A DNA stretch of 64,000 nucleotides from the IMG/VR virus record IMGVR_UViG_3300047157_000152, positions 3,725 through 67,724 of that record; one strand, written 5' to 3'. The stretch comes from a virus. Below, one piece after another: positions 7,591 to 56,488 of this stretch (positions within the stretch are counted from its first letter, which is position 1; each line of letters opens with the position of its first letter). Both the position numbers and the translations under genes were made by a program. The notes beneath the pieces were generated by a model. It had not been told where the DNA came from and ran no database searches. It saw nothing but the letters and a program-made list of their open reading frames with translations.

Positions 7591-7620
7591 TATTATCCAA
7601 GTATACTGTAGTTAGTTTGT
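7591..7620 (-). promoter_or_regulatory. Early promoter-like motif, copy 7 (degenerate, 1 nt shorter)
   Basis: ACAAACTAACTACAG-N7-GGATAATA. Confidence 0.65.
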
Positions 7621-7847: not shown

Positions 7848-8002
7848 ACTATTCAAATACTCTCTATATACTACTAGTAAACCTTACTAAAAACCTGTAA
7901 TATTATTAACCATAGCGCGCTTTACCAAAAGTCCGTTAAAATAAAATCATACAATTAGCTGTAAAATATAAAAAACCAGCATAACGATAAAAAAAAACAA
8001 AT

Positions 8003-25103: not shown

Positions 25104-25955
25104 ATGATAAATCCTAATAAATTTGCTAATCAAAAAATACAAGAACTAGGTCAAAACCTTTTTCAAGGTGAAGAGTTTGCTCAGCAAATAGCTAACAAAC
25201 AATTAGACCAGCCAGTTCCACCTCCAGGTCCTTATGGTGATATAAACCCTATCATGAATAAGGAAAGTAGAGAGGCTAGAAGACAAGAGAGAAAAAACAT
25301 AAGAATGGCTAACAAAGCTTTACGTAGTTCTAGACGAGAAAGAGCTAAAGGTGTAAAAGAACAAGGTCAAGAAAATTATAGCTATGATGGTTATGAAAAA
25401 GGTAGATATAATAAAAAAGGTGATGATATAGAGTACGGTAAAACACCTAGATATTCTAAGAAAAACCCACCAAGCGCTACTTTATCAGGTGCTATTGCTG
25501 GGTTCTCTAATAGTGCTTTAAATCAAGATGATCCAAAAGTTAAAAAATCAGAAGCCCAAAAACTACCTTCAAAAAAAGGGAAAGACGTAAAATTAAGACC
25601 TGGTGTAAAGCCAAAAGAAGTTTATTCTGAAATGGTTGGATCAATAGGTAGTCCTCCTAGATTAAAAACTCCATTAAATCAAGGTAAAAAATCTAAGTAC
25701 AGAATGGTAAACGTTCAAGATTTAGAAGACATGGGAGCTGTAAAATCTGATAAAAAAGGCAAATATGTTGTTAATTCTGATGAAATGAAAACTGGAACAT
25801 CTAGAGATACATTAAGACTACCAAGAGGCGCTAAGCATTACACAGGTAGAGATTATAAAGTTGGAGAATTAATTGATGAAAGTGATTTTGAAGACTTTGC
25901 AGAACCTCACCATAACTTTAAACGAAATTTACAACAATACCAACAGTATAAATAA
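25104..25955 (+). CDS. Hypothetical basic low-complexity protein (possible capsid cargo)
   Basis: ORF track; SALNQ/TPLNQ motifs. Confidence 0.6.
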   Translation: MINPNKFANQKIQELGQNLFQGEEFAQQIANKQLDQPVPPPGPYGDINPIMNKESREARRQERKNIRMANKALRSSRRERAKGVKEQGQENYSYDGYEKGRYNKKGDDIEYGKTPRYSKKNPPSATLSGAIAGFSNSALNQDDPKVKKSEAQKLPSKKGKDVKLRPGVKPKEVYSEMVGSIGSPPRLKTPLNQGKKSKYRMVNVQDLEDMGAVKSDKKGKYVVNSDEMKTGTSRDTLRLPRGAKHYTGRDYKVGELIDESDFEDFAEPHHNFKRNLQQYQQYK

Positions 25956-42246: not shown

Positions 42247-45200
42247 ATGGCTGAAATTAAAAACAGTTTTCTAAAATCCAAGATGAATAAAGACTTGGAT
42301 GATAGGCTTATTCCTAACGGTGAGTATAGAGATGCAAGAAATATATCTGTAGGAAAATCTGAAGATGATGATATAGGTGCGTTAGAAAACATATTAGGTA
42401 ATACTTTGGTTCCAGATACTAACGTAGGCGAGGTTGAAGTTATAGGTTACTTGAAAGATGATAATTCAAACACTATTTATTTATTTTTAACTAACAGTGC
42501 TTCACAACATTATATATATAAATATTTTAACAATTCATATATTAGACTAGTTGAAGGAGCTTTTTTAAACTTTAGTAATCAAAACTATATAACAGGTGTT
42601 AATTTAGTAGAAAACTTATTGTTCTGGACAGATAATAGAAATCAACCTAGAAAAATAAATGTTACAGCAACACCTCCGGTTGTTAACCAAACAACAGGTT
42701 TAACAACTACGCCTGGTTATTATACTAGAGAAAATCAAATATCAGTTGCCAAGTATAATCCATACGAAACTATAGAGTTATTAAAGAAAACAACAAGTGT
42801 TGTTGCTTCTTCAAGCTCTTCAACAACTATAACTTTATCAGCAGCTAATACTGCTATAAAAAAAGGCATGAGTATAATAGGGCCAAGTATTTTGGCTAAT
42901 AAATATGTGTATGTAACCAATGTTGTTGGAACAGCAGTAACAATTAATGTAGCCGCAACCGTAGCTACAAATGATGTTTTAACTTTTATCAGTACAACAA
43001 TGACAGGTAAAGATATTACCTATGATTTTAATAATGGTAATGATTGGCCAGGTGATCCTGATTTTCTTCAAGATTTGTTTGTTAGGTTTAGTTACAGGTT
43101 TAAGTTTGATGACCAAGAATACTCTTTAATGGCACCATTTAGCCAGCCAACCTTTATACCACAACAAAAAGGTTATTTTTTAAGTGGAGATGAAGACGCA
43201 GCATATAGAAGTACTATATTAGATTTTATGCAAAATGGAGTTCAAAATGTAGAATTACTAATACCACTTCCAGATACAGAAGCAAATTGCGGTCCACACG
43301 TTTCAGCAACTTATAAAATTATAGAAATAGACATATTATACAAAGAGTCAGATGCTCGATCAGTTAAAGTCTTAGACACTGTAAAAATTGAAACCTTAAC
43401 TTCTAATTCTAATATTTTTACTTACAACTATCAGTCTAGAAAACCTTACAAAACTTTACCAGAAAGACAAACTATTAGAGTTTATGACAAAGTTCCTGTA
43501 AAAGCTTTTTCACAGGAGGTTTCTGGAAATAGGGTTATGTATGGAAATTTTAGAAACCAACACACTCCACCTGCTTTTTTAAATTATAACGTTGGTGCAA
43601 GTGGAAAAAATACAACTATATTTGAAAATTGGGCTGAATACCCCAACCATACTTTAAAACAAAATAGAAATTATCAAGTTGGTTTTATATTAGCTGATAA
43701 ATTTGGTAGACAATCGTCTGTTATTCTTTCCTCTGTAGATCCAACCGGCCAAACAGTTAGTGGTGATTTTTTCGGTGGATCAACTTTTTATCACCCATAC
43801 ACTTCTGCTGGTCAAAATCTCAATGAATGGTTTGGCGACGCTTTAAAGGTTGTTATAAACGAAGCTATAAGCTCTTCTGTAAATGCTGATGGTGAAGGTG
43901 CACCTGGTCTATACGCTGACGCTAGAGGTAATGGCTTTAACATGTCTGTTTTATATTTAATAAACGATGAAGTAACTATACCCGTATTAAATACAGCTGG
44001 TTATGAATATAGGTTTAGAATTACAGGAAGTGCTAGCTACATACCAGCTGTTAACGAATACTTAAGAGGTGAATACACTGATTTTGTTAAAGTTGAAAAA
44101 GTAGATGCAACATCAGCTCCAGATTATAAGGTTTATACAAAGCAACCTATAAATAATTATTTATATTCTACTAATTCACTTAACACTCCAGACACTAAAT
44201 ATGCATATATAATACAAAACATTACTGGTTGGTATTCTTATAAAGTTGTTGTTAAACAACAAGAGCAAGAGTATTATAACTGTTATTTACCAGGGTTTTT
44301 AAATGGTTATCCGGATCACGGCGGAACATCACCTTATCCTACAAATGAAAATAATAAAACCGCTCACGTTGTTTTACTTAATGATAATATAAATAAAATA
44401 CCTAGAGATTTAAACGAAACCTCTGATCAACAAAAGCAATTTAGAAGTTCTATTAGATTATATGGTAGAGTAAATAACACAGCAACAGACAATGTTCAAT
44501 ATTTTCCAGTAAGCACAAGTGGTACTCAAACGCTACCATTAAGCATGACAGCTGATACAATTGCTACAGCTGTAGACTTAAACATGGGTTTCACTGAGTT
44601 GTCAAACGCAGGTAAAGATAATTTTTATCAATTAGATACAAATCCTTTAATAAGTAGATTAGCTGCTTCTAACGTAGGAACAACTAGCATAGGTGTTTTA
44701 ACAGCGGGTTTAACAACACCTTTTCTTTCTATTGCAGAAACAGAACCTGTTGAAAGCTTGTTGCAATTGTTTTATGAAACATCTACAGCTGGTTTAATTG
44801 CTGATTTAAATGCTGACATAAACACTGGTTTTGATGGTGTAGCTGGTCTTTCAGCAGTAGGTTATTCACATTTTGAAAACATGGCTGCTAACTCAGATAT
44901 ATCAGGGGTGTTTAGACCTCAAAACAATCAAGGTAGTGATTTTTTAAATACACAAATACAAAATGTTATAATGACTGTTACAGATTCTAATGGAACTAGA
45001 GCTTCTGGTAATATAAATTTAGATCCAAATCTAAGTAATGGTTTTACAGGAGATTTTAAACTAGTAACATCAGGGACTGGATATAAAATACAAACAGCAG
45101 TAAATACTTTTGTTTTTTCTAATGCTGGTTTTGATTTAAATAAAAATTCTTTAGAAACCTATAACTTTAACTTTACTTGGACAACAGTAGCTAATTCAGG

Positions 45201-46584
45201 TGGTGATACTAGTTCAACACCTTTTACTGGAAGCTTAACTAACAATGATCCTATTTTTACAGACTGGACTTCAGGCGCAAGCTTACCACCTGTAACAGTT
45301 AGTGTTGGTGATAATACCGGTGTTACCAGAGGAGCCAACAATGGTTCAGCAACAAGCAATACAAGCCAAATAAAGTATAGTATAGTATCTCAATCACCAG
45401 GTTCTTATTTTTCTATAGCTGATCCTTCTGTTGGAGTTGTTACAAAAAGTACAACAACACCACTAGGTGTTTATACTTTAAACTTAAAAGCTGAAGATGC
45501 TGTTGTAGGTGGTGTAATACAAAATGGTTCATTAAGTGTTACTAAACAACAGGTAATTACAGTTGGTGCATTACAAATGAATACAAGCTCTAAATCAGGT
45601 TGTGAATCTAGTATTGTTCCTTCTCAAGGTATACCACCTATGTTTGGTGCTGTAGTACCACTTTCCGCAACTCAATCACAACCTCAAAGAGCAATATGGT
45701 ATATAGCTAATGGAACTTTTACTAGCTCTAGTCCTGCTTCTGGTTATGCTTTAACAGATTTACCAGTTCAACCATCAACTAGCACTAATGACTCAAACTT
45801 TTTATTTAGATTAGGAACGCCAAACAGCTCTGCTTTATCTGTGGGAACTGTTGTGTTTTCTTGTAACATGCAGCAGAAATATTCTAGCGGATCATCTGCT
45901 CCTAGGTCTGGTTCAAAAGTTCAATGGAAAGTTTATCACAGAGATAATGCCTCTGATGCAACATGGAGTCAATTAGCTGATATAAATAATTCTAACATTA
46001 TTGCTGATGCGGAATTAATAAACAACAACTCTAATACTACTAAATATGCTTCAACAGCTTTTGCTTTTGACACAGTTGGTGAATACCTTATTGTTGCTGA
46101 AAACGCTTACCATACCTATGCTGGTACCTTTGCTGATTCATTAATCCTATGGGTTAATTCAGATGACTTATACTATGGCTCCTGTGTGGTTGAAAATGGT
46201 TTACCAATAACCGCACCATACTCTAATCCAACAGCTTGGCATTATGAAATATCTAGTCAACAAACAACTTATGGTTGTTACGCTACTAGCACAGACAGAT
46301 ATGCTCCAATGGCTTACGCAGAATATGTTGATATATTTTACTTAAACAGTACATTATCTTCACCAGCTAATGGTTCGACACATAACTATCCTAACTTCTT
46401 CGGTTTTGATGCTGCTTTTGGTAAACCTTTTGATCAGGTAAAAGTTTCAGCAAAATTTGATGCGGGTGGTATTAAAATAAGTGGAGATCCAAATACGTGT
46501 AGTGATAAACTAGCTAGACCTTGTTCCTCTACTCCACTACCTGTTTGTTCTAGACCTGTACCAGGTGCTATAGGTTGGTTGTAA
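42247..46584 (+). CDS. Tail stabilisation/nozzle protein (N-terminal part)
   Basis: KMNKDLDDRL.PNGEYRDA.N, LLFWTDN.NQPRKIN, RFSYRFKF.D.EYS typical of crAss-like stabilisation proteins. Confidence 0.78.
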   Translation: MAEIKNSFLKSKMNKDLDDRLIPNGEYRDARNISVGKSEDDDIGALENILGNTLVPDTNVGEVEVIGYLKDDNSNTIYLFLTNSASQHYIYKYFNNSYIRLVEGAFLNFSNQNYITGVNLVENLLFWTDNRNQPRKINVTATPPVVNQTTGLTTTPGYYTRENQISVAKYNPYETIELLKKTTSVVASSSSSTTITLSAANTAIKKGMSIIGPSILANKYVYVTNVVGTAVTINVAATVATNDVLTFISTTMTGKDITYDFNNGNDWPGDPDFLQDLFVRFSYRFKFDDQEYSLMAPFSQPTFIPQQKGYFLSGDEDAAYRSTILDFMQNGVQNVELLIPLPDTEANCGPHVSATYKIIEIDILYKESDARSVKVLDTVKIETLTSNSNIFTYNYQSRKPYKTLPERQTIRVYDKVPVKAFSQEVSGNRVMYGNFRNQHTPPAFLNYNVGASGKNTTIFENWAEYPNHTLKQNRNYQVGFILADKFGRQSSVILSSVDPTGQTVSGDFFGGSTFYHPYTSAGQNLNEWFGDALKVVINEAISSSVNADGEGAPGLYADARGNGFNMSVLYLINDEVTIPVLNTAGYEYRFRITGSASYIPAVNEYLRGEYTDFVKVEKVDATSAPDYKVYTKQPINNYLYSTNSLNTPDTKYAYIIQNITGWYSYKVVVKQQEQEYYNCYLPGFLNGYPDHGGTSPYPTNENNKTAHVVLLNDNINKIPRDLNETSDQQKQFRSSIRLYGRVNNTATDNVQYFPVSTSGTQTLPLSMTADTIATAVDLNMGFTELSNAGKDNFYQLDTNPLISRLAASNVGTTSIGVLTAGLTTPFLSIAETEPVESLLQLFYETSTAGLIADLNADINTGFDGVAGLSAVGYSHFENMAANSDISGVFRPQNNQGSDFLNTQIQNVIMTVTDSNGTRASGNINLDPNLSNGFTGDFKLVTSGTGYKIQTAVNTFVFSNAGFDLNKNSLETYNFNFTWTTVANSGGDTSSTPFTGSLTNNDPIFTDWTSGASLPPVTVSVGDNTGVTRGANNGSATSNTSQIKYSIVSQSPGSYFSIADPSVGVVTKSTTTPLGVYTLNLKAEDAVVGGVIQNGSLSVTKQQVITVGALQMNTSSKSGCESSIVPSQGIPPMFGAVVPLSATQSQPQRAIWYIANGTFTSSSPASGYALTDLPVQPSTSTNDSNFLFRLGTPNSSALSVGTVVFSCNMQQKYSSGSSAPRSGSKVQWKVYHRDNASDATWSQLADINNSNIIADAELINNNSNTTKYASTAFAFDTVGEYLIVAENAYHTYAGTFADSLILWVNSDDLYYGSCVVENGLPITAPYSNPTAWHYEISSQQTTYGCYATSTDRYAPMAYAEYVDIFYLNSTLSSPANGSTHNYPNFFGFDAAFGKPFDQVKVSAKFDAGGIKISGDPNTCSDKLARPCSSTPLPVCSRPVPGAIGWL

Positions 46585-46616: not shown

Positions 46617-48008
46617 ATGGCTGCTACTTTAGAATTAAAATATTTTAACTCATATTGGTTGAAGAAAATATCAAGTGTTGTAGATGCAAATCCTCAGCCA
46701 ACACCGCCATATGACGTTATACCTGGTGGTAATGCTAACGCAACACCTCCTGTTATACCTTTTGTAGCTTCTAACGCTAATGATTGGTTTATTGAAGAGT
46801 CTAGAATTAGAGGAGGTTATAACAATACATCTACAGATATAGGTGTAAAAGCTCACATAGTAGAAGATAACCCAAGTCAACAGTTAAGATTTAGTTCATT
46901 GATATACTCAGGTGTTTTAAATTCTAGGACAGGTATTAATCAAACAAATGAGTTTTCAGTTGGTGAAGATATAACAAGATCACTAGACCCAGCAAATGGT
47001 CAAATAATTAAGCTACACGCTGAAGATACTAATCTAATAATATTTCAAGAAGACAAGGTAAGTAGAGCGTTAATAGATAAAGATGCTATATACACAGCTG
47101 AAGGAACTGCATTGACAACATCTGGCAGAATTGTTATAGGTCAAGTTGTTTCATTTCCTGGTAAATATGGTATAGCTACAGATCCATTTAGTTTTGCTGT
47201 ATATGGTTATAGAAAATATTTTACAGACAGAAAACGTGGATGCGTGTTAAGGTTAACAACTCAAGGAGATATTGTAGAAATATCTGGTTTTGGTATGCAT
47301 GATTTTTTTAGAGATGAGTTAACAGGTATAAATAATCAAACTGGAAATGCTGAACCTGTACAAAAAATAGTTGGTGGGTGGGATAATCATACTAAAAACT
47401 ATGTACTATCAATACAAAAGGTTAATGGTCAATATAGCACGTTAAGCTTTGATGAAGGTGTACAAGGTTGGACTAGTTTCTTTGATTTTAAACCAAGTTT
47501 TATGTTTAGTTTAACTTCAACTTTTTTCTCTACTAACAGCGGTAAGCTTTATAGCCATTATGGAAGTAGTGCACATGGGCGTTTTTATGATGCACCTAAC
47601 AACGTGTTTCCATCAACAGTAAAAGTTGTGTTAAATGGTTCTCCATCAACAGTTAAAGTTTTTAAAACAATTAACTACGAAGGTAATAATGATTGGACTG
47701 TTTCAAGCGTTGTAGCAAGTTCTGGAGACATAGCTCAAGTACCTATTGCTAAATATGGAGATGTTCCAACTAGTCTAGTTGCTTTAGAAAATGAAATGTT
47801 TATTAATAAGTTTAAAAGAAAAGAAAATAAATACTTTGCTAATCTTATAAATAGTTCACCAGCAACACCCGGTGAAATACTTTTTGGTGCAAGTATGACA
47901 GGTGTAAAAGGATTTTTTACAACCTTTGACTTTAGCTTAGATAATAGTATAAACCAAAAAAGAGAATTATTTGCAGTATCATCTGAAACTGTAGAATCAT
48001 CATATTAA
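46617..48008 (+). CDS. Tail stabilisation/nozzle protein (C-terminal part as separate gene)
   Basis: IYSG..NSRTG.N.TN.F, FQEDKV, YFTD.KRG.VLRL, GWTSF, K.FKTINYEG. Confidence 0.72.
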   Translation: MAATLELKYFNSYWLKKISSVVDANPQPTPPYDVIPGGNANATPPVIPFVASNANDWFIEESRIRGGYNNTSTDIGVKAHIVEDNPSQQLRFSSLIYSGVLNSRTGINQTNEFSVGEDITRSLDPANGQIIKLHAEDTNLIIFQEDKVSRALIDKDAIYTAEGTALTTSGRIVIGQVVSFPGKYGIATDPFSFAVYGYRKYFTDRKRGCVLRLTTQGDIVEISGFGMHDFFRDELTGINNQTGNAEPVQKIVGGWDNHTKNYVLSIQKVNGQYSTLSFDEGVQGWTSFFDFKPSFMFSLTSTFFSTNSGKLYSHYGSSAHGRFYDAPNNVFPSTVKVVLNGSPSTVKVFKTINYEGNNDWTVSSVVASSGDIAQVPIAKYGDVPTSLVALENEMFINKFKRKENKYFANLINSSPATPGEILFGASMTGVKGFFTTFDFSLDNSINQKRELFAVSSETVESSY

Positions 48009-48014: not shown

Positions 48015-48863
48015 ATGGAAGAAGTTTTAAATATATTATACGAATTTTTATTTGCCGCGCCAGAAGGTGTTGTAATGGCGGTTATAGATCCTTTTACTGC
48101 CGCAGCAGTAATTGGAGGAGTAGGTAAGGTTATCGGCGGATTATTCGGGGGTGGTAGAGCTAGAAGAGCAGCTAGAAGAGCAAGACAGGAAAAAAACAGA
48201 CTGACAGGTGAATTAAAAAGTTTAGAAAATGGTAGACAACCACTAATAAATCCGTATTCTAATACTAAAGATTTAAGTTCTTTAGCTACAGATTTAAGTG
48301 GTGGACTTAGTAATCCTTACGGGAATTTAAGTGTAGCTACAGGTGCTTCTAAAATGCAAGCTGAAGAAGCGGATTTATCTTTAGCTAACACATTAGATAC
48401 TTTAAGATCTACAGGTGCTAGTGCTGGAGGTGCTACCGCGTTGGCTCAAGCCGCTTTACAAAGTAAAAAAGGTATTGCTGCTAATATAGAACAACAAGAG
48501 GCTGCTAATGAAAAAATGAGAGCTCAAGGTCAGCAATACTTAGAACAAGCTAAGTTTTCTGAAGGACAAAGATTACAGGGTATTGCTATATCAGAAGGAA
48601 AAAGAACGCAAGCTGCGGAATCAGCTGGTAGAGCTTTTAAATTTAATGCTCAAGAAAAAAGAAAAGACGCTCAACTAGCTTTTACTAGGCAGCAAATAAC
48701 TGGAGAAAAACAAAGAGAAACCAACGCATATAATCAAGAAACCCAAGCGTTGATGGGTGCTATAAGTGGTGGAACAGGTTTAGCAGCTATAGGAGGCGCT
48801 TCTGCTTTTGGGGCAACAGATGATCAGATGCAGGCTATATCTAAAGGTGTAATGAAAATTTAA
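48015..48863 (+). CDS. Putative ejection/DNA pilot protein
   Basis: G/A-rich hydrophobic N-terminus, Q/A-rich coiled coil, position after tail genes. Confidence 0.6.
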   Translation: MEEVLNILYEFLFAAPEGVVMAVIDPFTAAAVIGGVGKVIGGLFGGGRARRAARRARQEKNRLTGELKSLENGRQPLINPYSNTKDLSSLATDLSGGLSNPYGNLSVATGASKMQAEEADLSLANTLDTLRSTGASAGGATALAQAALQSKKGIAANIEQQEAANEKMRAQGQQYLEQAKFSEGQRLQGIAISEGKRTQAAESAGRAFKFNAQEKRKDAQLAFTRQQITGEKQRETNAYNQETQALMGAISGGTGLAAIGGASAFGATDDQMQAISKGVMKI

Positions 48864-48874
48864 GAATTAAAAAC

Positions 48875-49948
48875 ATGTCAATAAAAGATAAATTAATAGA
48901 AAATCAAAAGATAAACAAACAAATAAAGTTTGCTATATCAGAGCTCCAATCAAAACTTTCTTATGAATTAGGTTATAGTGATAATAAAGTAGAACCAATT
49001 GACTATGCAGCGTTATTTGATCCATATGTTAAGCTTTATGCTGATATTCAATTATCACTTGATCAAGGTACGAATGAAGATCCTGTAGAGGCTAGACGTT
49101 TAGTTAATTTAATCACAGGAAGTGTTGAAACAGTTAAAATAGGTTTAGAAAACATAATAAGCAATACAGAGGTTTGGAACGAAATGGTTCAAAAAGCAGG
49201 TGTTATGGGTGGTTTAGACATGATGGGAACACCTGTAAGCAGGTTTTTATCGTTAAGCATATTAAATGGTGATTTAGGTGGTAAAGTTGAAATAAAAGCA
49301 ATAGACAACAGTTTAAATAAAATTGCTTGGGAGATTTATGAAAAAGATGGTACTTTTGTTGAAAGAATTTATTTAAATAAACTAAATGAATTATCAGAAA
49401 ATCAAGACATGTTTGTAACTATACCTAGTAGGTTAGAGGAAAATGAAAACTTTAAGTTGTCTAATCCAGATATATTTGAACAAGAAAAAGTTGGTAGTGA
49501 TGAAAGCAATATTGTTTTAACTGGTGGTGTTACAGAGGTTTATAGAGAAAAAAAATCCGATGGCCAGTTAAATATTGTATCAAAAGATTTAAAAGGTGGT
49601 ATGGTTCAAGATTTTTACATTATTGATAAAAAAGCTATAGGCGATAGTTTACAGTTCAATCTTCAAATGGATAAAATTAGTGCTGGTCTACTCGAAGAGT
49701 TTCAAAGTTTTGATCAAGTAATTGCTTTTAATAATAATATTATAGCTAAAGTAACAGATTATTATCTTCAACCAGCTAAAGCTTTAAAAGATAATCAACA
49801 GAAAAAGTTTCAAGAAGATTACAAAAAATGGTATTTAGAAACTGAAATAGGTAAAGAATTCCCCTTAGGCGAACCAAGATTAAAAGCTGAAGCTGCAATT
49901 AAAGATGCTGATGAAGCGGTTAGCGAAGTTACTGAACAATTAGTTTAA
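48875..49948 (+). CDS. Putative internal virion protein
   Basis: ORF track; position among ejection genes. Confidence 0.55.
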   Translation: MSIKDKLIENQKINKQIKFAISELQSKLSYELGYSDNKVEPIDYAALFDPYVKLYADIQLSLDQGTNEDPVEARRLVNLITGSVETVKIGLENIISNTEVWNEMVQKAGVMGGLDMMGTPVSRFLSLSILNGDLGGKVEIKAIDNSLNKIAWEIYEKDGTFVERIYLNKLNELSENQDMFVTIPSRLEENENFKLSNPDIFEQEKVGSDESNIVLTGGVTEVYREKKSDGQLNIVSKDLKGGMVQDFYIIDKKAIGDSLQFNLQMDKISAGLLEEFQSFDQVIAFNNNIIAKVTDYYLQPAKALKDNQQKKFQEDYKKWYLETEIGKEFPLGEPRLKAEAAIKDADEAVSEVTEQLV

Positions 49949-49957: not shown

Positions 49958-52900
49958 ATGAATTGTCAAGATAAAAAGGCAAAATTCAATTGGACTGAAG
50001 AGCAATATAACAAGTGTCTTCAAAAAGAACAATTAGAAACTCCACCAAATCAAGAACTAAACCCACTGACTGGTTTAGGTTTAGAGGTTGATATTGATAT
50101 TGATGAGGCTATAAAAAATACTCCTGAAAAAAAACCAGAATTATCTTGGGGTGATAAAATTAATGCTTTAGTCAATGTTGCCTCAGTGGGTTCTGAAATT
50201 TATGCTGATAACGAAAAGTTAAAAAATTTAGAAAATATTAATTTTGTTTCTGGTATTAATTTTGGATTAAAAGAAAGTGGTTTTGGTGAAGGAAAAAATG
50301 AGTTTTATGATCCTGCTGTTTTAAAAGAAATAGCTTCTAATTTATCTACTAATGATATAACTAAATTTACTGAAAAAGAAAACGATTTTTTTTCAAAATG
50401 GGGTTATACTGTTGCAAAAAGTGCAAGCTCTGATCCTGACTATGAGCCTTCAACTTTAGCTATATGGGATGAGGCTCGTAGATTAAAAATACTGTCGTTA
50501 CAAGATGCTACAGGTGAAAAAAGTACTATTGTAGAAAATATGATAGGAAAAGATGGATTAGGGAATTTTTTTGGTGATGTATATAGAGCTAGTAAGTCTG
50601 GTGTGGTCATGTCAGACAGTTTAGATTCTTCTTTAGAAATATTTTCTAGCGGTGGAGTTGTTGAAACTGATAAATTACTTAAATTTTTAGAAGATCAAAA
50701 AAACAATGTTATTGCAAATAATACTTCAGACGAAATGAAAAAGTTTGAAAGTTGTTATGCTGATGCAGGCCAATCATCTATGGGTTTTTTAAAATGTTTA
50801 TATCAAAATCCAAGCGTTATATCTCAAGTAGTTGTTAATTCAGCTGTACTAAACGGTGGTGCTGTTATACAATCTGATGAAGTAAAAAAATCAGCTATTG
50901 CTGGAACGGCTGTTGGAGCTGTTGCTGGTGGACCAACAGGTGCATTAGCTGGATTCTTTATGGCTTCTGGGTACTCTTTAGAAGCAGGTTTAAAATTTGC
51001 AGAGCTTCTTATAGCTGAAACAGGTATTGATGATGTTAATAATATCACGGTTGATGATTTACAAAAAGTTTTAAATGATCCTGAAAAATTTGATAAAATA
51101 CAAACTAAAGCTAGAAATAGAGGAATAGTTATAGGTGTTGCTAGTGGTCTTAGTGCTGGCGTTGCTAGTAAAGCTGTTTCAGGACTTGTTAAAGCTGGTA
51201 AAAGTACTCGTGTGGCTGCTGCGGTGGGTACTGGAGTTGAAGTGATAGGTGAAGGTGTTGGCGAAGCTGCTGGTCAGCTAGCGGCTGGTGAAAAAATAGA
51301 CATGAAAGAAGTTTATTTTGAAATGGTTGGATCAGTAGGTAGTAAAGCTCCTGTAAGTGTTGGTGGTACTTTACTAAACTTACAACAAACTTCTACAAAC
51401 ATAAAAGTTGGAAGATTAGTTAAAGCGAATGGATTCACAAGTGTATCATCTGCTTTTGATCCTAACATTGAATCAAACGAAACTCAATTAGATGTTACTA
51501 AAATACCTAATTCTGAAAAAACATTAGCTTTTGAATTAGAAAATAATATAAAAAGAAGAGTAATATCAAGAGAAGATGCTTCTAGTGTAATGCAAAGATT
51601 TCAAGAAGTTAAAGCTACAGGTAAACAAATAGAACCTTTAAAGTTAAAAAATAAAACAGATCAAACTAAAATTATAAATCTTTTAGTAGAAAAAAAAGAA
51701 CTTACTGGTGTTATAAATAAAGTTAATGATGAAAACTTAACAGAAAGTGAAGCTAAAAGAGTTGAAGCTATCAACCTAGAACTTAATGATGTAATAGCAA
51801 ATTCTGAAAAAATTGAACCAGTTGCATTTAGTGAAGTAAAAGCAACAGAAACTAAATCTTCTGGATTTGAAACTACTGAAGGTAAAAAAATAAATGATTT
51901 AGTTGGTCCTAGAAAAGAAAATGGAGAATATGATGTTACTAAAAAAGAATGGGACAGTGGAATTAGAGAAAAAGTTATTGGTAATATATATGAAAACGAG
52001 TTATTACAGGGTTTAGTAAAAAAACAAATAACTCAAGAAATGAAAAGTTTACCTCAATTTTCAACAGAAGATTTTGTAAGCGCAACTATAACAGAATTAA
52101 TACCTCATATAAGAAATTTTAATCCTGAAATAAACAACTCATTATCTGGTTGGATAAACTCTGAATTAAATAATAAAAAACTTAACGCGTTAAAAAAAGG
52201 TAAATCAGGTACGGAACAAGTGTTTACATCTGATGTGACAGAAGCTAGAAACGTTACAGACTCTGAATCCATAACTATTGAGCAAAAAATTGATTTAAAA
52301 GATAAAGTTAAAGTTGCTGAAAATAAAGCTATTCAAAAGCTAAGGGAAGTTATAGGCGTAACACCTGAAGAAACAAAAGTTATAGGAGATAAGATAATAG
52401 GTGGAAAGATAAGAACAGAACCTGTAAAAGGTGTTTCAAATCCAGCTATGAGAGACGTTGGTAAAGCTGGTACACTTTTACAATCTGAAAAAATAATAGA
52501 GTCAATGGGTGGTAAAATTGGTACTGTTGGCAAAAATAACGATTTAGGCAATTATACAACTTTTTTAGAAGTTCAAGGTGAAGATGTTTTAACAGTATTA
52601 AATAGCGAAGATTTAAATGAAATAAAAAATACAAAGCTAAAAGATCTTTATAAACCAAAACAAGTTGATAGAGCTAGAGGTGTTCAAAACGTTAAAGGCG
52701 CTGGTAAAGGTATTTTTGAATATGAAAATGCAGAGCCTACTGTTAAAGATTTAATTACATGGGCTACGGATGATAGTTTACCTGCAACTACTAAAATAGC
52801 TAGACAGCAAACGCTAGCAGACATATTAGGTAACGCGTTAGGTAGGGTTTCTACAGTTGAAGCTGTAAAACCACTTAAAGATGGGGGAGTTTCAGAAGGT

Positions 52901-55900
52901 AGTAAAAAGTTTGTTGAAACACAAAAGCTTTTAGGCGAAGAAATAACACCGGATAAGCTTGCTAAATTTATAGCAAATATTGATATAAAAATTAAAAGCT
53001 TAGAAAAAACTAGAAAACAAAAATACGCTGGAAGACTAGGTGTTAACGACATACCTGCTATAGTAAATAAGTCATTAATATTAGCTTTAAAGTTATTTAA
53101 AAAAGCTTTACAAAACGGAGTTAACTGGATACAAGCTTTAGGTCAAGTAACAAGAGGTTTAGCTAAGAAAAACGTTAGTGCATCAGACGTTAAAATAATA
53201 CAAAAAGTTTTTCAAACTTACTTAACACCTAAACAATTGTCTGGTATAGAGCCTGTAACGCCAGAGCAATTACAAAAAGCTATTGAAGATGCTAAACTTG
53301 AGTTTAAGATGAAAAATAATGGCGATGCTTATGAAGCTGCTATTATAAAAGGATTGTTAGGTTTAGAAAAAAAAATACCTGGATTAGAAATAAAAACACG
53401 AGGCAAACAAGCTAATAATTTAAAAGGAGCTGATGTTGAAATGGTTGTAAACGGCGTTCCACTAAATGTAGAATTAAAAGCTATTTTTTCTGAAAGTGGC
53501 AATGTACAGTTAGGAAGTATAACTGTAAATGATTTAGAAAATCTTTTAGTTAAGAAAGCTGGTGGTTTACTTGATGCTGGTTTTCCGAAAGAAAAATTAG
53601 GAGACCTACTTAGTATAGCTGCAGGTATAGACATAAAATCTTTACAAAAACTAGCTGAATCATTTGGTTTTAAAGGAAAAGTTTTAGTAGATAAAATGCC
53701 AGAATCTATTTATAAAAAAGTTAAAAATGCAGATGGTTTAAAAAACACAAACCAACCTGATCCTAAAGGTTTTGCTGGTTTTACTATGGGTGAAATAGGT
53801 GCTATTTATAGAAGTAAAGTTCCACCAGTTCACTATATACAAATAAAAGGAAAGGGATTATATCACATGGGAGAAAATCCTTTAAACTTAAATGTACCTG
53901 ATATAAGTGCACAAAAAGTAGATTTTTATGCTAGAATAGCCTATGCGACTAGCACTAAGGATAAACAAACTGGAGAAAAAATGATTTCTTCTGTTGTTAG
54001 ATTTACTCCTAGATTTGTTAAAGGAAAAGGAGGCACTTTGGATATAGAAACTTCTAAATATTCATTAGACAATCCTAAATCTTTTGCTAATCTTATAAAT
54101 GATTCAAATGTTTTTGTCTTAGGTAAAGATAAGGTAAAAGCAAATTCTGTTCTTGATAAAGGAAAAGATTTTTTAAAAAACAACCCTGACGCTATACCTA
54201 CAACAACGGATCCTGTGGTTTTAGATTCAGATATAAACAAAATGATTGAAGATACTAAAGGTATCAAAGCTAGATATAAGTTTTCTGATATTGTAGCTAA
54301 AAGACGTGGCGCTGGTTTTAAGAATTTTAAAATAATACCTTCAAGTGCTCAAGACTTTAGCGGTTTAATGTATGATTTATATAGTAAAGGTATAAAAGGC
54401 GAACAGCAACAAGAATGGGTTAAAGAAAATTTAATAAAACCATACCAAAAAGGTATTGCTGAAATAGATAGTTATAGACAGGCTTTAAAAAATGATTACT
54501 CTTCGTTACTCAAAAAATTTCCTGCTATAGCTAAGAAACTAGGTAAAACAGTGCCTGGCACAGAGTTTACTTTTGATCAAGCTTTAAGAGTAAATTTATG
54601 GACAGAGGGTGGTTTTGAAATACCTGGTTTAGCTAAACGTGATATTAAAAAATTAAACGATATAGTTAATAAAGATCCTGAATTAAAACTGTTTAATCAA
54701 GCTGCTATAGAAATAAGTAAAAGAGATACATGGGTTAAGCCTAGTGCTTATTGGGATTCTGAAAGTTTAATATCTGATCTAAATAATTTAACAAATAAAG
54801 TTGGTAGAAAACAATATTTAGCTAGCTTTATAGAAAATGCTGATGTAATATTTTCTAAAGAAAACTTAAACAAAATGGAAGTTGCTTTAGGAACTAATTG
54901 GAGAGAAGCAATGGAAGATTCTTTATACCGTATGAAGAATGGTACTAATAGACCTTCTGGAACTAACAAATTAACAAATCAATTTAATAACTGGGTTAAT
55001 AATTCTGTTGGGGCAATAATGTTTATGAACGTTAAATCTGCTTTATTACAAACCATATCATCAGTTAACTTTTTAAACTGGTCAGATAATAATCCTTATA
55101 AAGCTGCTTTAGCTTTTGGTAATCAAAAACAATACTGGTCAGATTTTGCTACATTGTGGAATTCGCCTAAGCTAAAACAAAGAAGATCTGGTCTTAGAAA
55201 AGATGTTAATGAAGCTGAACTCGCTAACGCGGCTATAGGTGCTAAAAATAAACCGCAAGCTATATTAAGCTATTTACTTAAAATAGGTTTCACGCCTACT
55301 CAGATGGCAGATAGCTTTGCTATTGCATCAGGTGGTGCTACATTTTATAGAAACAGAATAAACACGTTGAAAAATCAAGGTTTAGATCAAAAAGCGGCTG
55401 AAGAACAAGCATTTGAAGATTTTGCAGAAGCTTCGGATGTTGCTCAACAGTCAGCAGATCCTATGTTAATATCTCAGCAACAGGCTAGTCCACTTGGTAG
55501 ATTAATATTAGCTTTTCAAAACACACCCGCTCAGGTGACTAGAATATTTAATAAATCTGCTAGAGACTTTATAAATAATAGAGGCGATCAAAAAACAAAT
55601 GTATCTAAAATGATATATTATGGTGCTGTTCAAGGTATGATATTTGCTACATTGCAAAATGCTGCATTTGCTTTAATACCGGGTTTTGATAACGAAGAAG
55701 ATGAAGAAAAGAAAAGTAAAGAGTTTGATGTAAAAGAAGAAAGAATACTTAACAGTATGGTTGATACTATGCTTAGAGGTTCTGGTGTTTATGGAGCTAT
55801 TGTTTCTACATTAAAAAATACTGCTCTTACATATTATAGGGAAGAAAAGAAAGATGCTTTTAGCAAAGACCATAGAAACACATTGTTAGAAATATTAAAT

Positions 55901-56488
55901 TTAAGTCCACCTGTTGGTTCTAAAGTTAGAAAAATAAACAATGCTATAAAAGCTAAAGATTACAACAAAGAGGTAGTAAAAGAGCAAGGTTGGGATGTAA
56001 CCTTAAAAGGTAAGGTCAACTTAAGTCCTTCATATCAAGTTATAGCGTCACTTACAGAAGCAATAACTAATTTACCTCTTGAAAGAGCTGTAGTTGAAAT
56101 TGACAGAATTGTTGAAGTTTTAGATGCTAGAAATACTACATTCCAAAGAATTGCACTTGCTTTAGGTTACAGAACATGGGATGTAAATGCTAAAAATGAA
56201 GAAAGAGATCTTGTAAAAATAGAAGCTAAAGAAAGAAAAGAAGTTGCTAGAAAGCAAAAAGTTATAGACGATAGAGCTGAAAGAAAAAGATTAAAAGAAC
56301 TAGAAAAGTATAAAGGTAAAACTAAAGATGAGATTAAGCAAATAAAACGTAGAGACTCTATAGTTGATACTAATAAATCTGATCAAGTAAAATCTTTAAT
56401 TAACTTAGGTTTGACTAAGAAAGAAATTAAAGAGCTTAAATACGAAGATGATAGAGTTAATAAAATAATTGAACTAACAAATAAATAA
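49958..56488 (+). CDS. Giant multidomain internal virion/ejection protein (2176 aa)
   Basis: G/A-rich membrane-like segment, sigma-2-like and PD-(D/E)XK-like segments, helical C-terminus (QQS.DP...SPLGRLILAFQNTP). Confidence 0.7.
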   Translation: MNCQDKKAKFNWTEEQYNKCLQKEQLETPPNQELNPLTGLGLEVDIDIDEAIKNTPEKKPELSWGDKINALVNVASVGSEIYADNEKLKNLENINFVSGINFGLKESGFGEGKNEFYDPAVLKEIASNLSTNDITKFTEKENDFFSKWGYTVAKSASSDPDYEPSTLAIWDEARRLKILSLQDATGEKSTIVENMIGKDGLGNFFGDVYRASKSGVVMSDSLDSSLEIFSSGGVVETDKLLKFLEDQKNNVIANNTSDEMKKFESCYADAGQSSMGFLKCLYQNPSVISQVVVNSAVLNGGAVIQSDEVKKSAIAGTAVGAVAGGPTGALAGFFMASGYSLEAGLKFAELLIAETGIDDVNNITVDDLQKVLNDPEKFDKIQTKARNRGIVIGVASGLSAGVASKAVSGLVKAGKSTRVAAAVGTGVEVIGEGVGEAAGQLAAGEKIDMKEVYFEMVGSVGSKAPVSVGGTLLNLQQTSTNIKVGRLVKANGFTSVSSAFDPNIESNETQLDVTKIPNSEKTLAFELENNIKRRVISREDASSVMQRFQEVKATGKQIEPLKLKNKTDQTKIINLLVEKKELTGVINKVNDENLTESEAKRVEAINLELNDVIANSEKIEPVAFSEVKATETKSSGFETTEGKKINDLVGPRKENGEYDVTKKEWDSGIREKVIGNIYENELLQGLVKKQITQEMKSLPQFSTEDFVSATITELIPHIRNFNPEINNSLSGWINSELNNKKLNALKKGKSGTEQVFTSDVTEARNVTDSESITIEQKIDLKDKVKVAENKAIQKLREVIGVTPEETKVIGDKIIGGKIRTEPVKGVSNPAMRDVGKAGTLLQSEKIIESMGGKIGTVGKNNDLGNYTTFLEVQGEDVLTVLNSEDLNEIKNTKLKDLYKPKQVDRARGVQNVKGAGKGIFEYENAEPTVKDLITWATDDSLPATTKIARQQTLADILGNALGRVSTVEAVKPLKDGGVSEGSKKFVETQKLLGEEITPDKLAKFIANIDIKIKSLEKTRKQKYAGRLGVNDIPAIVNKSLILALKLFKKALQNGVNWIQALGQVTRGLAKKNVSASDVKIIQKVFQTYLTPKQLSGIEPVTPEQLQKAIEDAKLEFKMKNNGDAYEAAIIKGLLGLEKKIPGLEIKTRGKQANNLKGADVEMVVNGVPLNVELKAIFSESGNVQLGSITVNDLENLLVKKAGGLLDAGFPKEKLGDLLSIAAGIDIKSLQKLAESFGFKGKVLVDKMPESIYKKVKNADGLKNTNQPDPKGFAGFTMGEIGAIYRSKVPPVHYIQIKGKGLYHMGENPLNLNVPDISAQKVDFYARIAYATSTKDKQTGEKMISSVVRFTPRFVKGKGGTLDIETSKYSLDNPKSFANLINDSNVFVLGKDKVKANSVLDKGKDFLKNNPDAIPTTTDPVVLDSDINKMIEDTKGIKARYKFSDIVAKRRGAGFKNFKIIPSSAQDFSGLMYDLYSKGIKGEQQQEWVKENLIKPYQKGIAEIDSYRQALKNDYSSLLKKFPAIAKKLGKTVPGTEFTFDQALRVNLWTEGGFEIPGLAKRDIKKLNDIVNKDPELKLFNQAAIEISKRDTWVKPSAYWDSESLISDLNNLTNKVGRKQYLASFIENADVIFSKENLNKMEVALGTNWREAMEDSLYRMKNGTNRPSGTNKLTNQFNNWVNNSVGAIMFMNVKSALLQTISSVNFLNWSDNNPYKAALAFGNQKQYWSDFATLWNSPKLKQRRSGLRKDVNEAELANAAIGAKNKPQAILSYLLKIGFTPTQMADSFAIASGGATFYRNRINTLKNQGLDQKAAEEQAFEDFAEASDVAQQSADPMLISQQQASPLGRLILAFQNTPAQVTRIFNKSARDFINNRGDQKTNVSKMIYYGAVQGMIFATLQNAAFALIPGFDNEEDEEKKSKEFDVKEERILNSMVDTMLRGSGVYGAIVSTLKNTALTYYREEKKDAFSKDHRNTLLEILNLSPPVGSKVRKINNAIKAKDYNKEVVKEQGWDVTLKGKVNLSPSYQVIASLTEAITNLPLERAVVEIDRIVEVLDARNTTFQRIALALGYRTWDVNAKNEERDLVKIEAKERKEVARKQKVIDDRAERKRLKELEKYKGKTKDEIKQIKRRDSIVDTNKSDQVKSLINLGLTKKEIKELKYEDDRVNKIIELTNK

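What the first reader, a model, noticed from the sequence alone, without database searches (positions are those of the whole stretch)
51940..52200. Sigma-factor region-2-like segment inside the giant putative ejection protein
Seen: IGNIYENELLQGLVKKQI...STEDFVSATITELIPHIRNFNPEINNSLSGWINSELNNKKLNALKK aligns by eye to the sigma70/ECF region 2 pattern (EDLVQE.F..L...I..FDP....F.TW....A.N...D.LRK). Established: crAss-like phages carry a virion RNA polymerase in their giant ejected proteins. No convincing RNAP catalytic motif is visible in this protein. Inference: this phage may instead inject a sigma-like domain that redirects host RNAP to its own early promoters, which are not Bacteroidota-type. 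Together with the 7-copy motif this would be a virion-delivered transcription take-over system.
Basis: partly seen in the sequence, partly recalled or inferred. Interest (0 to 1): 0.78.

Follow-up and report, generated by a model that had tools for sequence, protein, structure and literature searches.

The report
Sigma-factor domain inside giant phage protein
A giant protein that this marine phage probably carries in its particle contains a genuine but stripped-down copy of the sigma-factor domain that grips bacterial RNA polymerase, so the phage may seize the host's transcription machine at the moment of injection.

Summary
The quoted peptide is real: it is aa 661-748 of a 2,176-aa ORF (49958-56488, +). 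It is the core of a ~100-residue sigma70-family domain-2 (sigma2) module.

Evidence for homology:
- Pfam Sigma70_r2 is the only recurrent hit (19 of 34 family members, best E 1.4e-6). The window's own copy is sub-threshold (17.7 bits against a cut-off of 24).
- A 217-segment profile aligns to 30 Flavobacteriaceae sigma2 regions (HHalign 85%, P 6e-6; reversed control 0.3%).
- The AlphaFold model's best PDB matches are sigma factors (Z up to 7.7).

No sigma4 was found. No polymerase family, motif or fold turned up in the parts tested; aa 1-650 and 773-1419 were not folded.

The sigma2 module and an all-alpha C-terminal module shared with phage "polyvalent" proteins are the two constants of a family of at least 284 clusters of giant phage proteins. 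The gene lies three genes downstream of a crAss-type muzzle gene, where crassviruses encode ejected cargo and virion RNA polymerase.

Delivery into the cell and RNAP binding are inferred (co-fold: weak support). The link to the repeated motif is not established. That motif is a bipartite promoter-like element, and the phage also encodes a complete free sigma, outside the window, found in 9 of 11 related genomes (both misses look truncated).

The parts
49958..56488 (+). Giant ORF, 2176 aa (P0001); last large gene of the virion module and putative ejected cargo / polyvalent protein
   Evidence: ORF list and translation. 86 relatives of 1203-3391 aa. Lies three genes downstream of the muzzle-like gene.
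51911..52273 (+). Sigma2-like domain as aligned and modelled (aa 652-772).
   Evidence: Alignment A1. Pfam Sigma70_r2 in 19 of 34 members. PDB profile hits. AF2 model with core pLDDT about 88. Foldseek and VIA lists dominated by sigma factors. HHalign 85% against bacterial sigma2.
50504..51334 (+). N-terminal block N2 (aa 183-459), Gly/Ala-rich with two moderately hydrophobic stretches (aa 286-304 and 389-408); possible membrane-active part
   Evidence: phrog_32588, E 9e-28. Block HMM hits the syntenic 3860-aa protein of MW202828 at E 5e-9. Hydropathy scan. The membrane role is inferred.
54215..56485 (+). C-terminal all-alpha module (aa 1420-2176), the most conserved part of the family; shared fold with C-terminal parts of annotated phage polyvalent proteins
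   Evidence: Present in 154-158 of 160 family proteins of >=1900 aa. AF2 model all helices, pLDDT 67. BFVD Foldseek gave 52 hits at E<=1e-3, 10 of the 50 rows shown named MuF-C / PolyVal / LPD. No PDB match.
46617..48008 (+). Muzzle-like tail protein (463 aa); context marker for the crAss-type cargo module
   Evidence: Pfam crAss_MUZ E 6.3e-9 (34.9 bits, cut-off 27) and crAss_MUZ_C E 1.2e-8 (35.7 bits, cut-off 27). phrog_14478 'virion structural protein'.
48015..49948 (+). Two ORFs (282 and 357 aa) between the muzzle-like gene and the giant ORF; positional analogues of crassvirus cargo proteins C1 and C2 (inference only)
   Evidence: No PHROG or Pfam family. The position is compared with the gp44-gp47 order described in PMC10172136.

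Best explanation
What it is. The segment is the core of a divergent sigma70-family domain 2 (sigma2: regions 1.2/2.1-2.4) of about 100 residues. No sigma3 or sigma4 is detectable. It is embedded at aa ~652-752 of a 2176-aa multidomain protein. That protein belongs to the class of giant 'polyvalent'/cargo proteins that phages pack in the particle and eject ahead of or with the DNA.

Most likely mechanism. After ejection and refolding, the module docks on the clamp helices of the beta-prime subunit of host core RNA polymerase, as sigma2 domains do. A few host polymerases are thereby captured for the incoming genome. The module would act as a minimal initiation factor or RNAP adaptor, before the phage's own complete sigma (encoded outside the window) has been made. 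The phage has no polymerase of its own that I could find, so all its transcription should run on host RNAP.

Shown here: homology and fold of the domain; its strict conservation together with the C-terminal module across the family; absence of sigma4; absence of polymerase families; the crAss-type muzzle-to-giant gene order.

Inferred: presence in the virion, delivery into the cell, binding to RNAP, and any effect on promoter choice.
For: Homology.
- Pfam Sigma70_r2 in 19 of 34 members, best E 1.4e-6. One relative is over the curated cut-off (24.3 bits).
- Top PDB sequence hits are sigma factors.
- HHalign 85%, P 6.2e-6, against 30 Flavobacteriaceae sigma2 regions; reversed control 0.3%.

Fold.
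- AF2 mean pLDDT 78, core blocks 87-91.
- VIA search over 48,161 chains: 16 of the top 22 rows are entries whose title names a sigma factor. Examples: 6pmj_F Z 7.4, rmsd 3.9, 86 aligned; 9m84_F Z 7.4, 3.1, 90; 5zx2_F Z 7.0, 3.0, 80; 1sig_A Z 5.7, 2.6, 71.
- Foldseek PDB: the 16 best rows (ranks 1-18) are sigma-factor entries or RNAP complexes by title; rank 1 is ambiguous.

Constraint.
- 284 representative clusters at E<=1e-3 and 170 at <=1e-10.
- Near-invariant HIRNFxPE...LxGWIN.
- The sigma2 block is found in 156 of 160 family proteins of >=1900 aa and the C-module blocks in 154-158 of 160, while the other blocks vary from 25 to 86 of 160. The set was collected through this region, so the sigma2 figure is partly circular.

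Cargo status.
- Muzzle Pfam hits in the gene three genes upstream.
- In PhiCrAss001 the genes after the muzzle gene encode MS-detected cargo and RNAP-associated proteins (PMC10172136).
- The C-module fold matches C-terminal pieces of proteins named PolyVal-ART, MuF-C and LPD.
- The last gene of the structural module of Cellulophaga phage phi18:3 is a 1935-aa virion protein confirmed by MS/MS.

Dependence on host RNAP.
- No PF00623 match (controls rang in 14 of 14) and no PF00940 match.
- The phage has a free sigma with regions 2 and 4.

Co-fold with residues 230-360 of RPOC_FLAJ1: weak support. Score 0.35 against a best control of 0.07. The mark was reached by 58 of 80 solved complexes and 2 of 110 mismatched pairs, but at 0.60 or under by only 7 of those 80 and by both mismatches. 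Runs agree in at least 61% of contacts and partner pLDDT is at least 55. Sigma2/beta-prime complexes are solved, so the pass may be from memory.
Against: - The window's own copy is below Pfam's cut-off (13.5, 17.7 and 18.5 bits against 24).
- Foldseek found no PDB match at E<=0.001. All VIA Z scores are under 8, a range the tool warns can reflect a common helical arrangement.
- HHalign against the phage's own sigma family was not significant (E 0.21).
- No virion proteomics exists for this protein. Block HMMs find no homology to the MS-verified phi18:3 gp123.
- No Pfam polyvalent-type domain was detected by HMM.
- The domain is a small part of a 2176-aa chain and no processing protease was found.
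- Only aa 652-772 and 1420-2176 were folded, so a cryptic polymerase or DNA-binding domain elsewhere is not excluded.
- A subset of close relatives (P0016, P0018-P0020) carries a strongly diverged version of the domain.
Confidence: 0.5

Rival explanations
1. The injected sigma2-like domain is itself the promoter-specificity factor for the repeated early motif. It directs host core RNAP to these promoters at time zero, a virion-delivered sigma.
For: - The 7 motif copies precede small leftward ORFs next to the divergent switch region.
- They do not fit the Bacteroidota consensus as I recall it; that consensus gives 7 matches against 5.7 expected in the window, and none is upstream of these genes in the right orientation.
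- The free sigma gene lies downstream of these promoters on the same strand, so something must start transcription before it exists.
- The -10-like GATAATAT is invariant in 11 phages, as is the loop/helix motif of the sigma2 domain.
Against: - The element is bipartite, with a lineage-variable upstream box (five or more variants). The giant protein has no sigma4 to read it.
- A complete phage sigma is present in 9 of the 11 genomes examined, and the two misses look truncated. It is the simpler reader.
- The full 15-nt upstream box (<=2 mismatches) is absent in 4 and present in at most 2 copies in 6 of 10 other sigma2-giant phages. These include ones whose sigma2 domain is closer (56-57% identity) than in phages that keep it (42%).
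Confidence: 0.2
2. Decoy or shut-off. The domain occupies the beta-prime clamp helices to block host sigma binding and silence host genes.
For: The same homology and fold evidence applies. Sigma2 alone carries the main core-binding surface (recalled textbook knowledge).
Against: Cargo proteins are few per particle. PhiCrAss001 is estimated at about 6 copies of each large cargo protein (PMC10172136), against thousands of RNAP molecules per cell (recalled). A stoichiometric blocker delivered by the virion would therefore be ineffective. This is an inference.
Confidence: 0.07
3. Exapted fold. The sigma2-derived bundle no longer touches RNAP. It instead binds DNA (for example single-stranded ends during ejection) or serves as a structural or packing element of the cargo protein.
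For: - The strongest conservation is in the loop and the start of the helix that contact DNA in sigma factors, rather than across the whole helix 2.2 (the mapping onto sigma functions is recalled).
- The co-fold was only weak.
- The constant partnership with the C-module could reflect an intramolecular role.
Against: Every characterised sigma2 domain I know of works on RNAP (recalled). The phage depends on host RNAP, so an RNAP-binding cargo has an obvious use.
Confidence: 0.15
4. Chance resemblance. This is a generic four-helix bundle with a fortuitous motif, not a sigma homologue.
For: - The own sequence is below Pfam's cut-off.
- Foldseek E values are all above 0.1 and VIA Z is under 8.
- HHalign against the phage's own sigma family was not significant.
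Against: Four independent lines point to the same family in the same register. The reversed control fails. One relative passes the curated cut-off.
Confidence: 0.08

Closest known systems
Sigma70-family sigma factors, domain sigma2 (Pfam Sigma70_r2; group 3 and ECF sigmas)
   Same: Same helical fold. The FNPE...LSGW signature aligns to the FNPE...LATY stretch of the SigE N-terminal domain 8b3z.
   Different: No region 3 or 4. It is not a free protein but an internal domain of a 2176-aa virion-module protein. Its sequence is far from the phage's own sigma.
Phage T4 gp55, a minimal sigma that reads a -10-only late promoter (recalled)
   Same: A phage-encoded factor with sigma2 only. The entry 7d7d (T4 gp45-dependent activation complex), chain F, is among the fold matches (Z 6.2, rmsd 3.6, 89 aligned). 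I did not verify the identity of that chain.
   Different: gp55 is a small free protein made during infection. It needs gp33 and the sliding clamp (recalled). Nothing comparable was tested here.
Virion RNA polymerases carried in giant cargo proteins: crassvirus gp47/gp49/gp50 (PMC10172136) and N4 gp50 (PMC5512222)
   Same: Giant protein encoded after the tail/muzzle genes, presumably packed and ejected to start early transcription. The muzzle-to-cargo-to-giant gene order matches.
   Different: No sequence match to any solved structure. No polymerase Pfam family in the genome. The C-module has no PDB fold match. The protein would borrow the host enzyme rather than bring its own.
Phage polyvalent proteins (Iyer et al. 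2017, PMC5512222)
   Same: A giant multidomain protein among late genes. The C-terminal module fold is shared with proteins named PolyVal-ART, MuF-C and LPD. Atlas leads point to LPD38 and LPD39 clusters. A relative carries a Zeta-toxin/AAA_33 kinase domain.
   Different: No Pfam polyvalent domain is found by HMM. The word 'sigma' does not occur in the main text of that paper. Its supplementary domain tables could not be seen.
T4 Alt, a packaged ADP-ribosyltransferase that retunes host RNAP on injection (PMC5512222, introduction passage)
   Same: A virion-delivered protein that acts on host RNAP in the first moments of infection.
   Different: Alt is an enzyme that modifies RNAP. Here the cargo would be a non-catalytic RNAP-binding domain.

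Membership tests
Sigma70 region 2 / sigma2 domain (PF04542) | Significant sequence-profile similarity to region 2, in register | tested here: met
   19 of 34 members match, best E 1.4e-6. HHalign 85%, P 6.2e-6, over 74 columns against 30 bacterial sigma2 regions; reversed control 0.3%. The top 3 PDB sequence hits are sigma factors.
Sigma70 region 2 / sigma2 domain (PF04542) | The window's own sequence alone reaches Pfam's curated cut-off (24 bits) | tested here: not met
   13.5 bits on the whole protein, 17.7 bits on the 121-aa piece and 18.5 bits in the six-frame search. A relative in G004 reaches 24.3 bits.
Sigma70 region 2 / sigma2 domain (PF04542) | Sigma2 helical fold | tested here: met
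   AF2 core pLDDT is about 88. In the VIA search, 16 of the top 22 rows are sigma-factor entries by title, with Z from 5.7 to 7.4 and 71-95 residues aligned. The Foldseek top rows are sigma2 domains, but all have E>0.1.
Complete sigma factor (promoter-specificity subunit) | Region 4 / sigma4 domain for the -35 element | tested here: not met
   PF04545 matches only the free sigma (G000:2865-3020) even at E<=10, and PF08281 gives nothing. Pfam on the whole giant protein at E<=1 shows none.
Complete sigma factor (promoter-specificity subunit) | Binds the beta-prime clamp helices of core RNAP | tested here: inconclusive
   The co-fold gave weak support: score 0.35 against a best control of 0.07. 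The mark was reached by 58 of 80 solved complexes and 2 of 110 mismatched pairs, but at 0.60 or under by only 7 of those 80 and by both mismatches. Runs agree in at least 61% of contacts and partner pLDDT is at least 55. The pass may be from memory of solved complexes.
Complete sigma factor (promoter-specificity subunit) | Directs promoter-specific initiation | not testable with these tools
   This needs in vitro transcription.
Phage polyvalent / ejected cargo proteins | Giant multidomain protein encoded among virion genes | tested here: met
   The protein is 2176 aa. It follows the TerL, portal, capsid and muzzle-like genes on the same strand. Its block architecture is variable across the family.
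Phage polyvalent / ejected cargo proteins | Shares a module with recognised polyvalent proteins | tested here: met
   BFVD Foldseek gave 52 hits at E<=1e-3. Ten of the 50 rows shown are named MuF-C, ART-PolyVal, PolyVal ART or LPD-containing, with TMq 0.26-0.47 for those ten. The model is of moderate quality (pLDDT 67).
Phage polyvalent / ejected cargo proteins | Pfam MuF, MPTase or LPD domain by HMM | tested here: not met
   No such family at E<=1 on the whole protein, and none among the 16 families hit by the 34 domain segments.
Phage polyvalent / ejected cargo proteins | Physically present in the virion and delivered to the cell | not testable with these tools
   There is only synteny with MS-verified proteins of phi18:3 and PhiCrAss001.
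Virion RNA polymerase (crassvirus / N4 type) | Sequence similarity to solved or catalogued polymerases | tested here: not met
   phmmer and the family profile against PDB gave no polymerase. PF00940 and PF00623 are absent from the genome. The PF00940 controls did not ring anywhere.
Virion RNA polymerase (crassvirus / N4 type) | Polymerase fold or metal-binding motif | tested here: inconclusive
   The C-module is all-alpha with no PDB match. The only D.D.D is at aa 45, in a non-conserved block. Residues 1-650 and 773-1419 were not folded.

The most novel reading that the evidence does not exclude
A relay of sigma functions. The virion delivers a sigma2-only module that docks on host core RNAP and opens the invariant GATAATAT -10-like element of the phage's own promoters at time zero. 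This gives the first transcripts, including that of the phage's complete sigma, which then takes over using the upstream box. In this lineage a borrowed-polymerase adaptor would have replaced the virion RNA polymerase that crassviruses carry at the same gene position.
Probability: 0.2. Interest if true: 0.9.

Novelty: new variant of a known kind. Interest (0 to 1): 0.7.

Why it matters
Phages are known to start early transcription in three ways. Some use host-type promoters. Some inject their own RNA polymerase (N4, crassviruses, phiKZ-like). Some inject an enzyme that modifies host RNAP (T4 Alt).

A sigma2 domain built into an ejected cargo protein would be a fourth solution: bringing only the handle that grips the host enzyme.

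The domain is not a curiosity of one contig. It defines at least 284 clusters (50% identity) of giant proteins, and turned up in 78 viral-contig loci, some in complete 59-69 kb genomes. The claim is directly testable with a pull-down and an in vitro transcription assay.

It would also add a new non-catalytic effector type to the polyvalent-protein repertoire. It would give a functional hint for the large, unannotated cargo proteins of podoviruses whose nearest cultured relatives infect Flavobacteriia.

My literature searches (and the text search) found no description of a sigma domain in a virion or polyvalent protein.

Tried and rejected
- tblastn of the giant protein and of the free sigma against 50,697 phage records: no match at 1e-5.
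- phmmer of P0001 against PDB: nothing at E<=1. The full-length family profile (A2) against PDB gave only two weak huntingtin hits.
- HHalign of A1 against the phage's own sigma family (Neff 1.3): not significant, although in the right register.
- The syntenic 3860-aa protein of MW202828 has no sigma2 domain. Block HMMs against phi18:3 gp123 and gp114 gave nothing significant.
- Foldseek PDB with the C-module: best E 0.032, TM about 0.1, beta-catenin-type repeats. This is not meaningful.
- Pfam on three longer relatives: only AAA_33 / Zeta_toxin in P0114.
- Motif-assignment test. I first read as showing that the motif tracks the free sigma. That was wrong, because the Pfam screen had missed sigma orthologues in G001 and G004. 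A protein search found them at 67% identity.
- The two genomes without a sigma (G009, G010) have their promoter clusters at the contig end, reading off the end. The absence is probably truncation. The test therefore does not discriminate between readers.
- Alignment of nine sigma orthologues shows a nearly constant 4.2 helix (YVRVSxLKK; G003 has YVKVSKLKK). This is too little to call covariation with the upstream box.
- Transcription-driven DNA entry via a tethered RNAP: considered but dropped as untestable, because G000 has no terminal repeat and its physical ends are unknown.
- The search of earlier findings by place and by sequence: nothing.
It was repeated with the C-terminal part as a DNA reference.
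Full report
THE OBSERVATION

Window 51940-52200 lies in frame in a single ORF, 49958..56488 on the + strand, 2176 aa. It covers residues 661-748, and both quoted strings are there. The window is positions 3725-67724 of a 67,724-bp virus record that CheckV rates as complete.

IS IT A SIGMA REGION 2?

Sequence evidence:
- On the whole protein, Pfam's best hit is Sigma70_r2: E 0.063, 13.5 bits, aa 702-748 to profile 22-68 of 71. This is far below the curated 24 bits.
- A search with residues 600-900 returned 86 relatives of 1203-3391 aa. Their shared core is aa ~641-785.
- I cut that core from 34 members at under 80% identity (alignment A1).
- Scanned one by one, 19 of the 34 match Sigma70_r2 at E<=1 (best 1.4e-6). 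No other family is matched by more than 3. The window's piece scores E 0.0031, 17.7 bits.
- The A1 profile against PDB sequences gave six hits at E<=10. The first three and one more are sigma factors (E 0.03-0.73). The other two are a DEK protein and a designed protein.
- In six-frame searches of related genomes, the copy in a 2882-aa frame of G004 reaches 24.3 bits, over the cut-off.

For an independent test I took 30 sigma2 regions from three Flavobacteriaceae genomes and ran HHalign:
- A1 gave 57% (P 1e-4, 71 columns).
- A 217-segment family alignment gave 85% (P 6.2e-6, 74 columns), spanning the whole of regions 2.1-2.4.
- With the target reversed, both fell to 0.3% (P about 0.2).
- The same comparison with the phage's own, low-diversity sigma family was not significant.

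Fold evidence:
- AlphaFold2 on A1 gave mean pLDDT 78, pTM 0.64 and core blocks of 87-91. Helices are at model positions 11-28, 31-39, 52-68 and 78-98.
- Foldseek against the PDB found nothing at E<=0.001. Even so, its 16 best rows (ranks 1-18) are sigma-factor entries or RNAP complexes by title. The best is 8b3z_B: probability 0.89, TMt 0.68, rmsd 3.0.
- The exhaustive VIA search over 48,161 chains gave 32 chains with Z>=5 and none with Z>=8.
- Of the top 22 VIA rows, 16 have titles naming a sigma factor, two are SID1 membrane proteins, and four are transcription complexes whose chain I did not identify. Those four include an AR9 polymerase holoenzyme and the T4 gp45-dependent activation complex.
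- The tool warns that Z under 8 can be a common arrangement. The argument therefore rests on four lines agreeing, not on any single score.

I put homology at about 0.85-0.9.

WHAT IS AROUND IT IN THE PROTEIN?

No sigma region 4 is detectable. PF04545 and PF08281 searched over the whole genome at E<=10 hit only a different gene.

The A1 profile finds 284 representative clusters at E<=1e-3 among 1.84 billion proteins, and 170 at <=1e-10. The 150 listed are mostly giant proteins, with the domain in the middle.

I split the family alignment (A2) into ten blocks and searched the 228 collected proteins. Of the 160 that are >=1900 aa:
- 156 carry the sigma2 block.
- 154-158 carry the three C-terminal blocks.
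- Every other block occurs in only 25-86.

The set was gathered through this region, so the sigma2 figure is partly circular. The constant pairing with the C-module is not circular.

The C-module (aa 1420-2176):
- It folds as an all-helical structure (pLDDT 67, pTM 0.53).
- It has no meaningful PDB match.
- It has 52 BFVD matches at E<=1e-3. After four close homologues, these are C-terminal pieces of giant viral proteins. Ten of the 50 rows shown are named MuF C-terminal, ART-PolyVal, PolyVal ADP-ribosyltransferase or large-polyvalent-protein-associated.
- The ESM Atlas points the same way, as a lead only: LPD39 on 28% and LPD38 on 92% of the members of the nearest named clusters.
- A longer relative carries an AAA_33 / Zeta-toxin-type kinase domain.

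The protein is therefore best filed with the phage polyvalent proteins of Iyer et al. 2017. Those authors argue such proteins are packed and injected, and can "jump-start transcription" (PMC5512222; abstract and sections 18 and 32 read). Pfam's own polyvalent models do not hit it.

GENOMIC CONTEXT

The + strand block runs as follows:
- tail-fibre-like giants;
- a GroEL-like gene;
- TerL (31246);
- portal (33451);
- a capsid-type "virion structural protein" (37062);
- further structural PHROGs;
- a 1445-aa and a 463-aa protein of phrog_14478.

The 463-aa protein passes Pfam's crAss_MUZ (34.9 bits) and crAss_MUZ_C (35.7 bits) models, each with a cut-off of 27. Two unassigned ORFs (282 and 357 aa) follow, and then the giant ORF.

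In PhiCrAss001 the genes after the muzzle gene gp44 encode cargo proteins gp45 and gp46 and the RNAP-associated gp47, gp49 and gp50. All were found in virions by mass spectrometry, with about six copies of each large one assumed in the storage estimate (PMC10172136, passages).

The giant ORF thus sits where crassviruses keep their ejected transcription cargo. By TerL, however, the nearest cultured relatives are Flavobacterium 'elemo' podoviruses (44%) and Cellulophaga Pachyviridae such as phi18:3 (39%). The last structural gene of phi18:3 is a 1935-aa virion protein verified by MS/MS, but it has no detectable homology to this one. An uncultured relative (TerL 63%) has a syntenic 3860-aa protein that shares only the N2 block (E 5e-9) and lacks the sigma2 domain. 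The cargo is modular.

NO POLYMERASE, BUT A SECOND SIGMA

The genome has no match to PF00623 (controls rang in 14 of 14) or to PF00940 (controls silent). The giant protein's only D.D.D is at aa 45, in a poorly conserved block. Seven further unassigned virion-module proteins have no Pfam family at all.

Just outside the window (G000:2823-3584, minus strand) lies a 253-aa sigma with regions 2 and 4. It has thousands of close relatives in metagenomes, some named as sigma-70 family. The phage should therefore depend on host core RNAP throughout.

THE REPEATED MOTIF

Six exact or near-exact copies and one weaker copy of TACAAACTAAATACGA lie on the minus strand at window 2807-7621. A 3-mismatch search found 9 matches against 2.1 expected. 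Each of the seven copies is followed after about 9 nt by GATAATA. In most, an ATG follows 6-8 nt later.

In ten other near-complete genomes that carry the sigma2-giant, the 15-mer (<=2 mismatches) occurs 10, 8, 6, 3, 2, 2, 0, 0, 0 and 0 times. The backwards control gave 0-2.

Looking instead for GATAATAT shows the same two-box architecture in all of them. The -10-like box is invariant. The upstream box differs by lineage: ACAAACTAAATACGA, ACAAATTAAA, ACAAACAAAA, CTCACCnnTTAAATAA, CACGGACTTG.

The free sigma orthologue is present in nine of the eleven genomes. The other two have their promoter cluster at the contig end reading outwards, so the gene is probably cut off. Co-occurrence therefore cannot say which factor reads the element.

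A bipartite promoter fits a two-domain sigma better than a sigma2-only module. The free sigma gene does lie downstream of these promoters, so the question of what fires them first remains open. I found no enrichment of the Bacteroidota consensus as I recall it (7 matches against 5.7 expected).

MECHANISM

I commit to this reading: a sigma2 module, delivered as part of a cargo protein, docks on the beta-prime clamp helices of host core RNAP.

The one direct test available was a co-fold with residues 230-360 of Flavobacterium johnsoniae beta-prime. It gave weak support:
- Score 0.35 against a best control of 0.07.
- The mark was reached by 58 of 80 solved complexes and 2 of 110 mismatched pairs.
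- At 0.60 or under, it was reached by only 7 of those 80 and by both mismatches.
- Runs agree in at least 61% of contacts, and partner pLDDT is at least 55.
- It may reflect memory of solved sigma-RNAP complexes.

Low cargo copy number argues against a stoichiometric shut-off role. This is an inference and from recalled RNAP numbers. The module may act as a minimal sigma, as an adaptor that brings the rest of the polypeptide to RNAP, or not on RNAP at all; only experiment can decide.

NOVELTY

Searches of the paper library found no report of a sigma domain in a virion or polyvalent protein. The main text of PMC5512222 has 0 occurrences of "sigma". Supplements were closed.

I rate this as a new variant of a known kind: cargo/polyvalent proteins gaining a sigma2 effector. 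The bolder relay model has a probability of about 0.2.

Noticed in passing
window 2807-2822, 4276-4291, 5111-5126, 5826-5841, 6480-6495, 7380-7395, 7606-7621 (motif read on the minus strand): Seven copies of a bipartite promoter-like element: TACAAACTAAATACGA, about 9 nt, then GATAATA. In most copies an ATG lies 6-8 nt after GATAAT, so the mRNAs may be leaderless or have very short leaders. The GATAATAT box is invariant in ten related phage genomes, while the upstream box varies by lineage.
   Followed up: partly
outside the window: G000:2823-3584, minus strand (L001:994-1755): A free-standing 253-aa sigma70-family factor with regions 2 and 4. Orthologues (about 67% identity where measured) occur in 9 of 11 related genomes, and thousands of close relatives occur in metagenomes.
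   Followed up: yes
window 42247-46584 and 46617-48008 (+): Two adjacent ORFs (1445 and 463 aa) both match phrog_14478, at its N-terminal part and at positions 919-1227 respectively. The second passes Pfam crAss_MUZ and crAss_MUZ_C. This looks like a crAss-type muzzle protein split into two genes, in a phage whose TerL relatives are Pachyviridae and 'elemo' podoviruses.
   Followed up: partly
window 25614-25652 and 51305-51343 (+): A 39-nt stretch that is 95% identical between a 283-aa ORF (25104-25955) and the giant ORF. It encodes KEVY[SF]EMVGS[IV]GS, at aa 449-461 of the giant protein. The rest of the two proteins is unrelated. It could be a shared processing or capsid-targeting signal, but this was not tested.
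   Followed up: partly
window 3481-3554 and 4530-4602 (-): tRNA-Gln (ttg) and tRNA-Met (cat) genes lie among the small leftward ORFs.
   Followed up: no
window 7650-8000: A non-coding stretch of about 350 bp between the divergent gene blocks. It looks more G+C-rich than its surroundings by eye. No Rfam family matches it at gathering score.
   Followed up: partly
window 12404-14059 and 19292-21529 (+): 13 copies of a 50-63-nt repeat built around GGCAACGTCGGGATCGG, inside the 730-aa and 1027-aa tail-fibre-like genes. These are repeated peptide modules of the fibres.
   Followed up: no
window 22752-24308 (+): A phage GroEL-like chaperonin (phrog_5725, E 1e-133). Its relatives at 48-74% identity sit on contigs binned into MAGs of many phyla. 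Four of the 13 are Flavobacteriaceae MAGs.
   Followed up: partly
relatives P0016, P0018, P0019, P0020 (aa ~720-815): Four close relatives of the giant protein carry a strongly diverged version of the sigma2 domain. The A1 profile gives E 0.02-4, but a TFDETRNPNLLSHIIGRL stretch can still be aligned.
   Followed up: partly
window ~53700-53800 (aa ~1255-1276 of the giant ORF): By eye, GADVEMVVNGVPLNVELKA resembles a PD-(D/E)xK nuclease motif. No tool result supports it. The block containing it occurs in 45 of 160 long family members.
   Followed up: no
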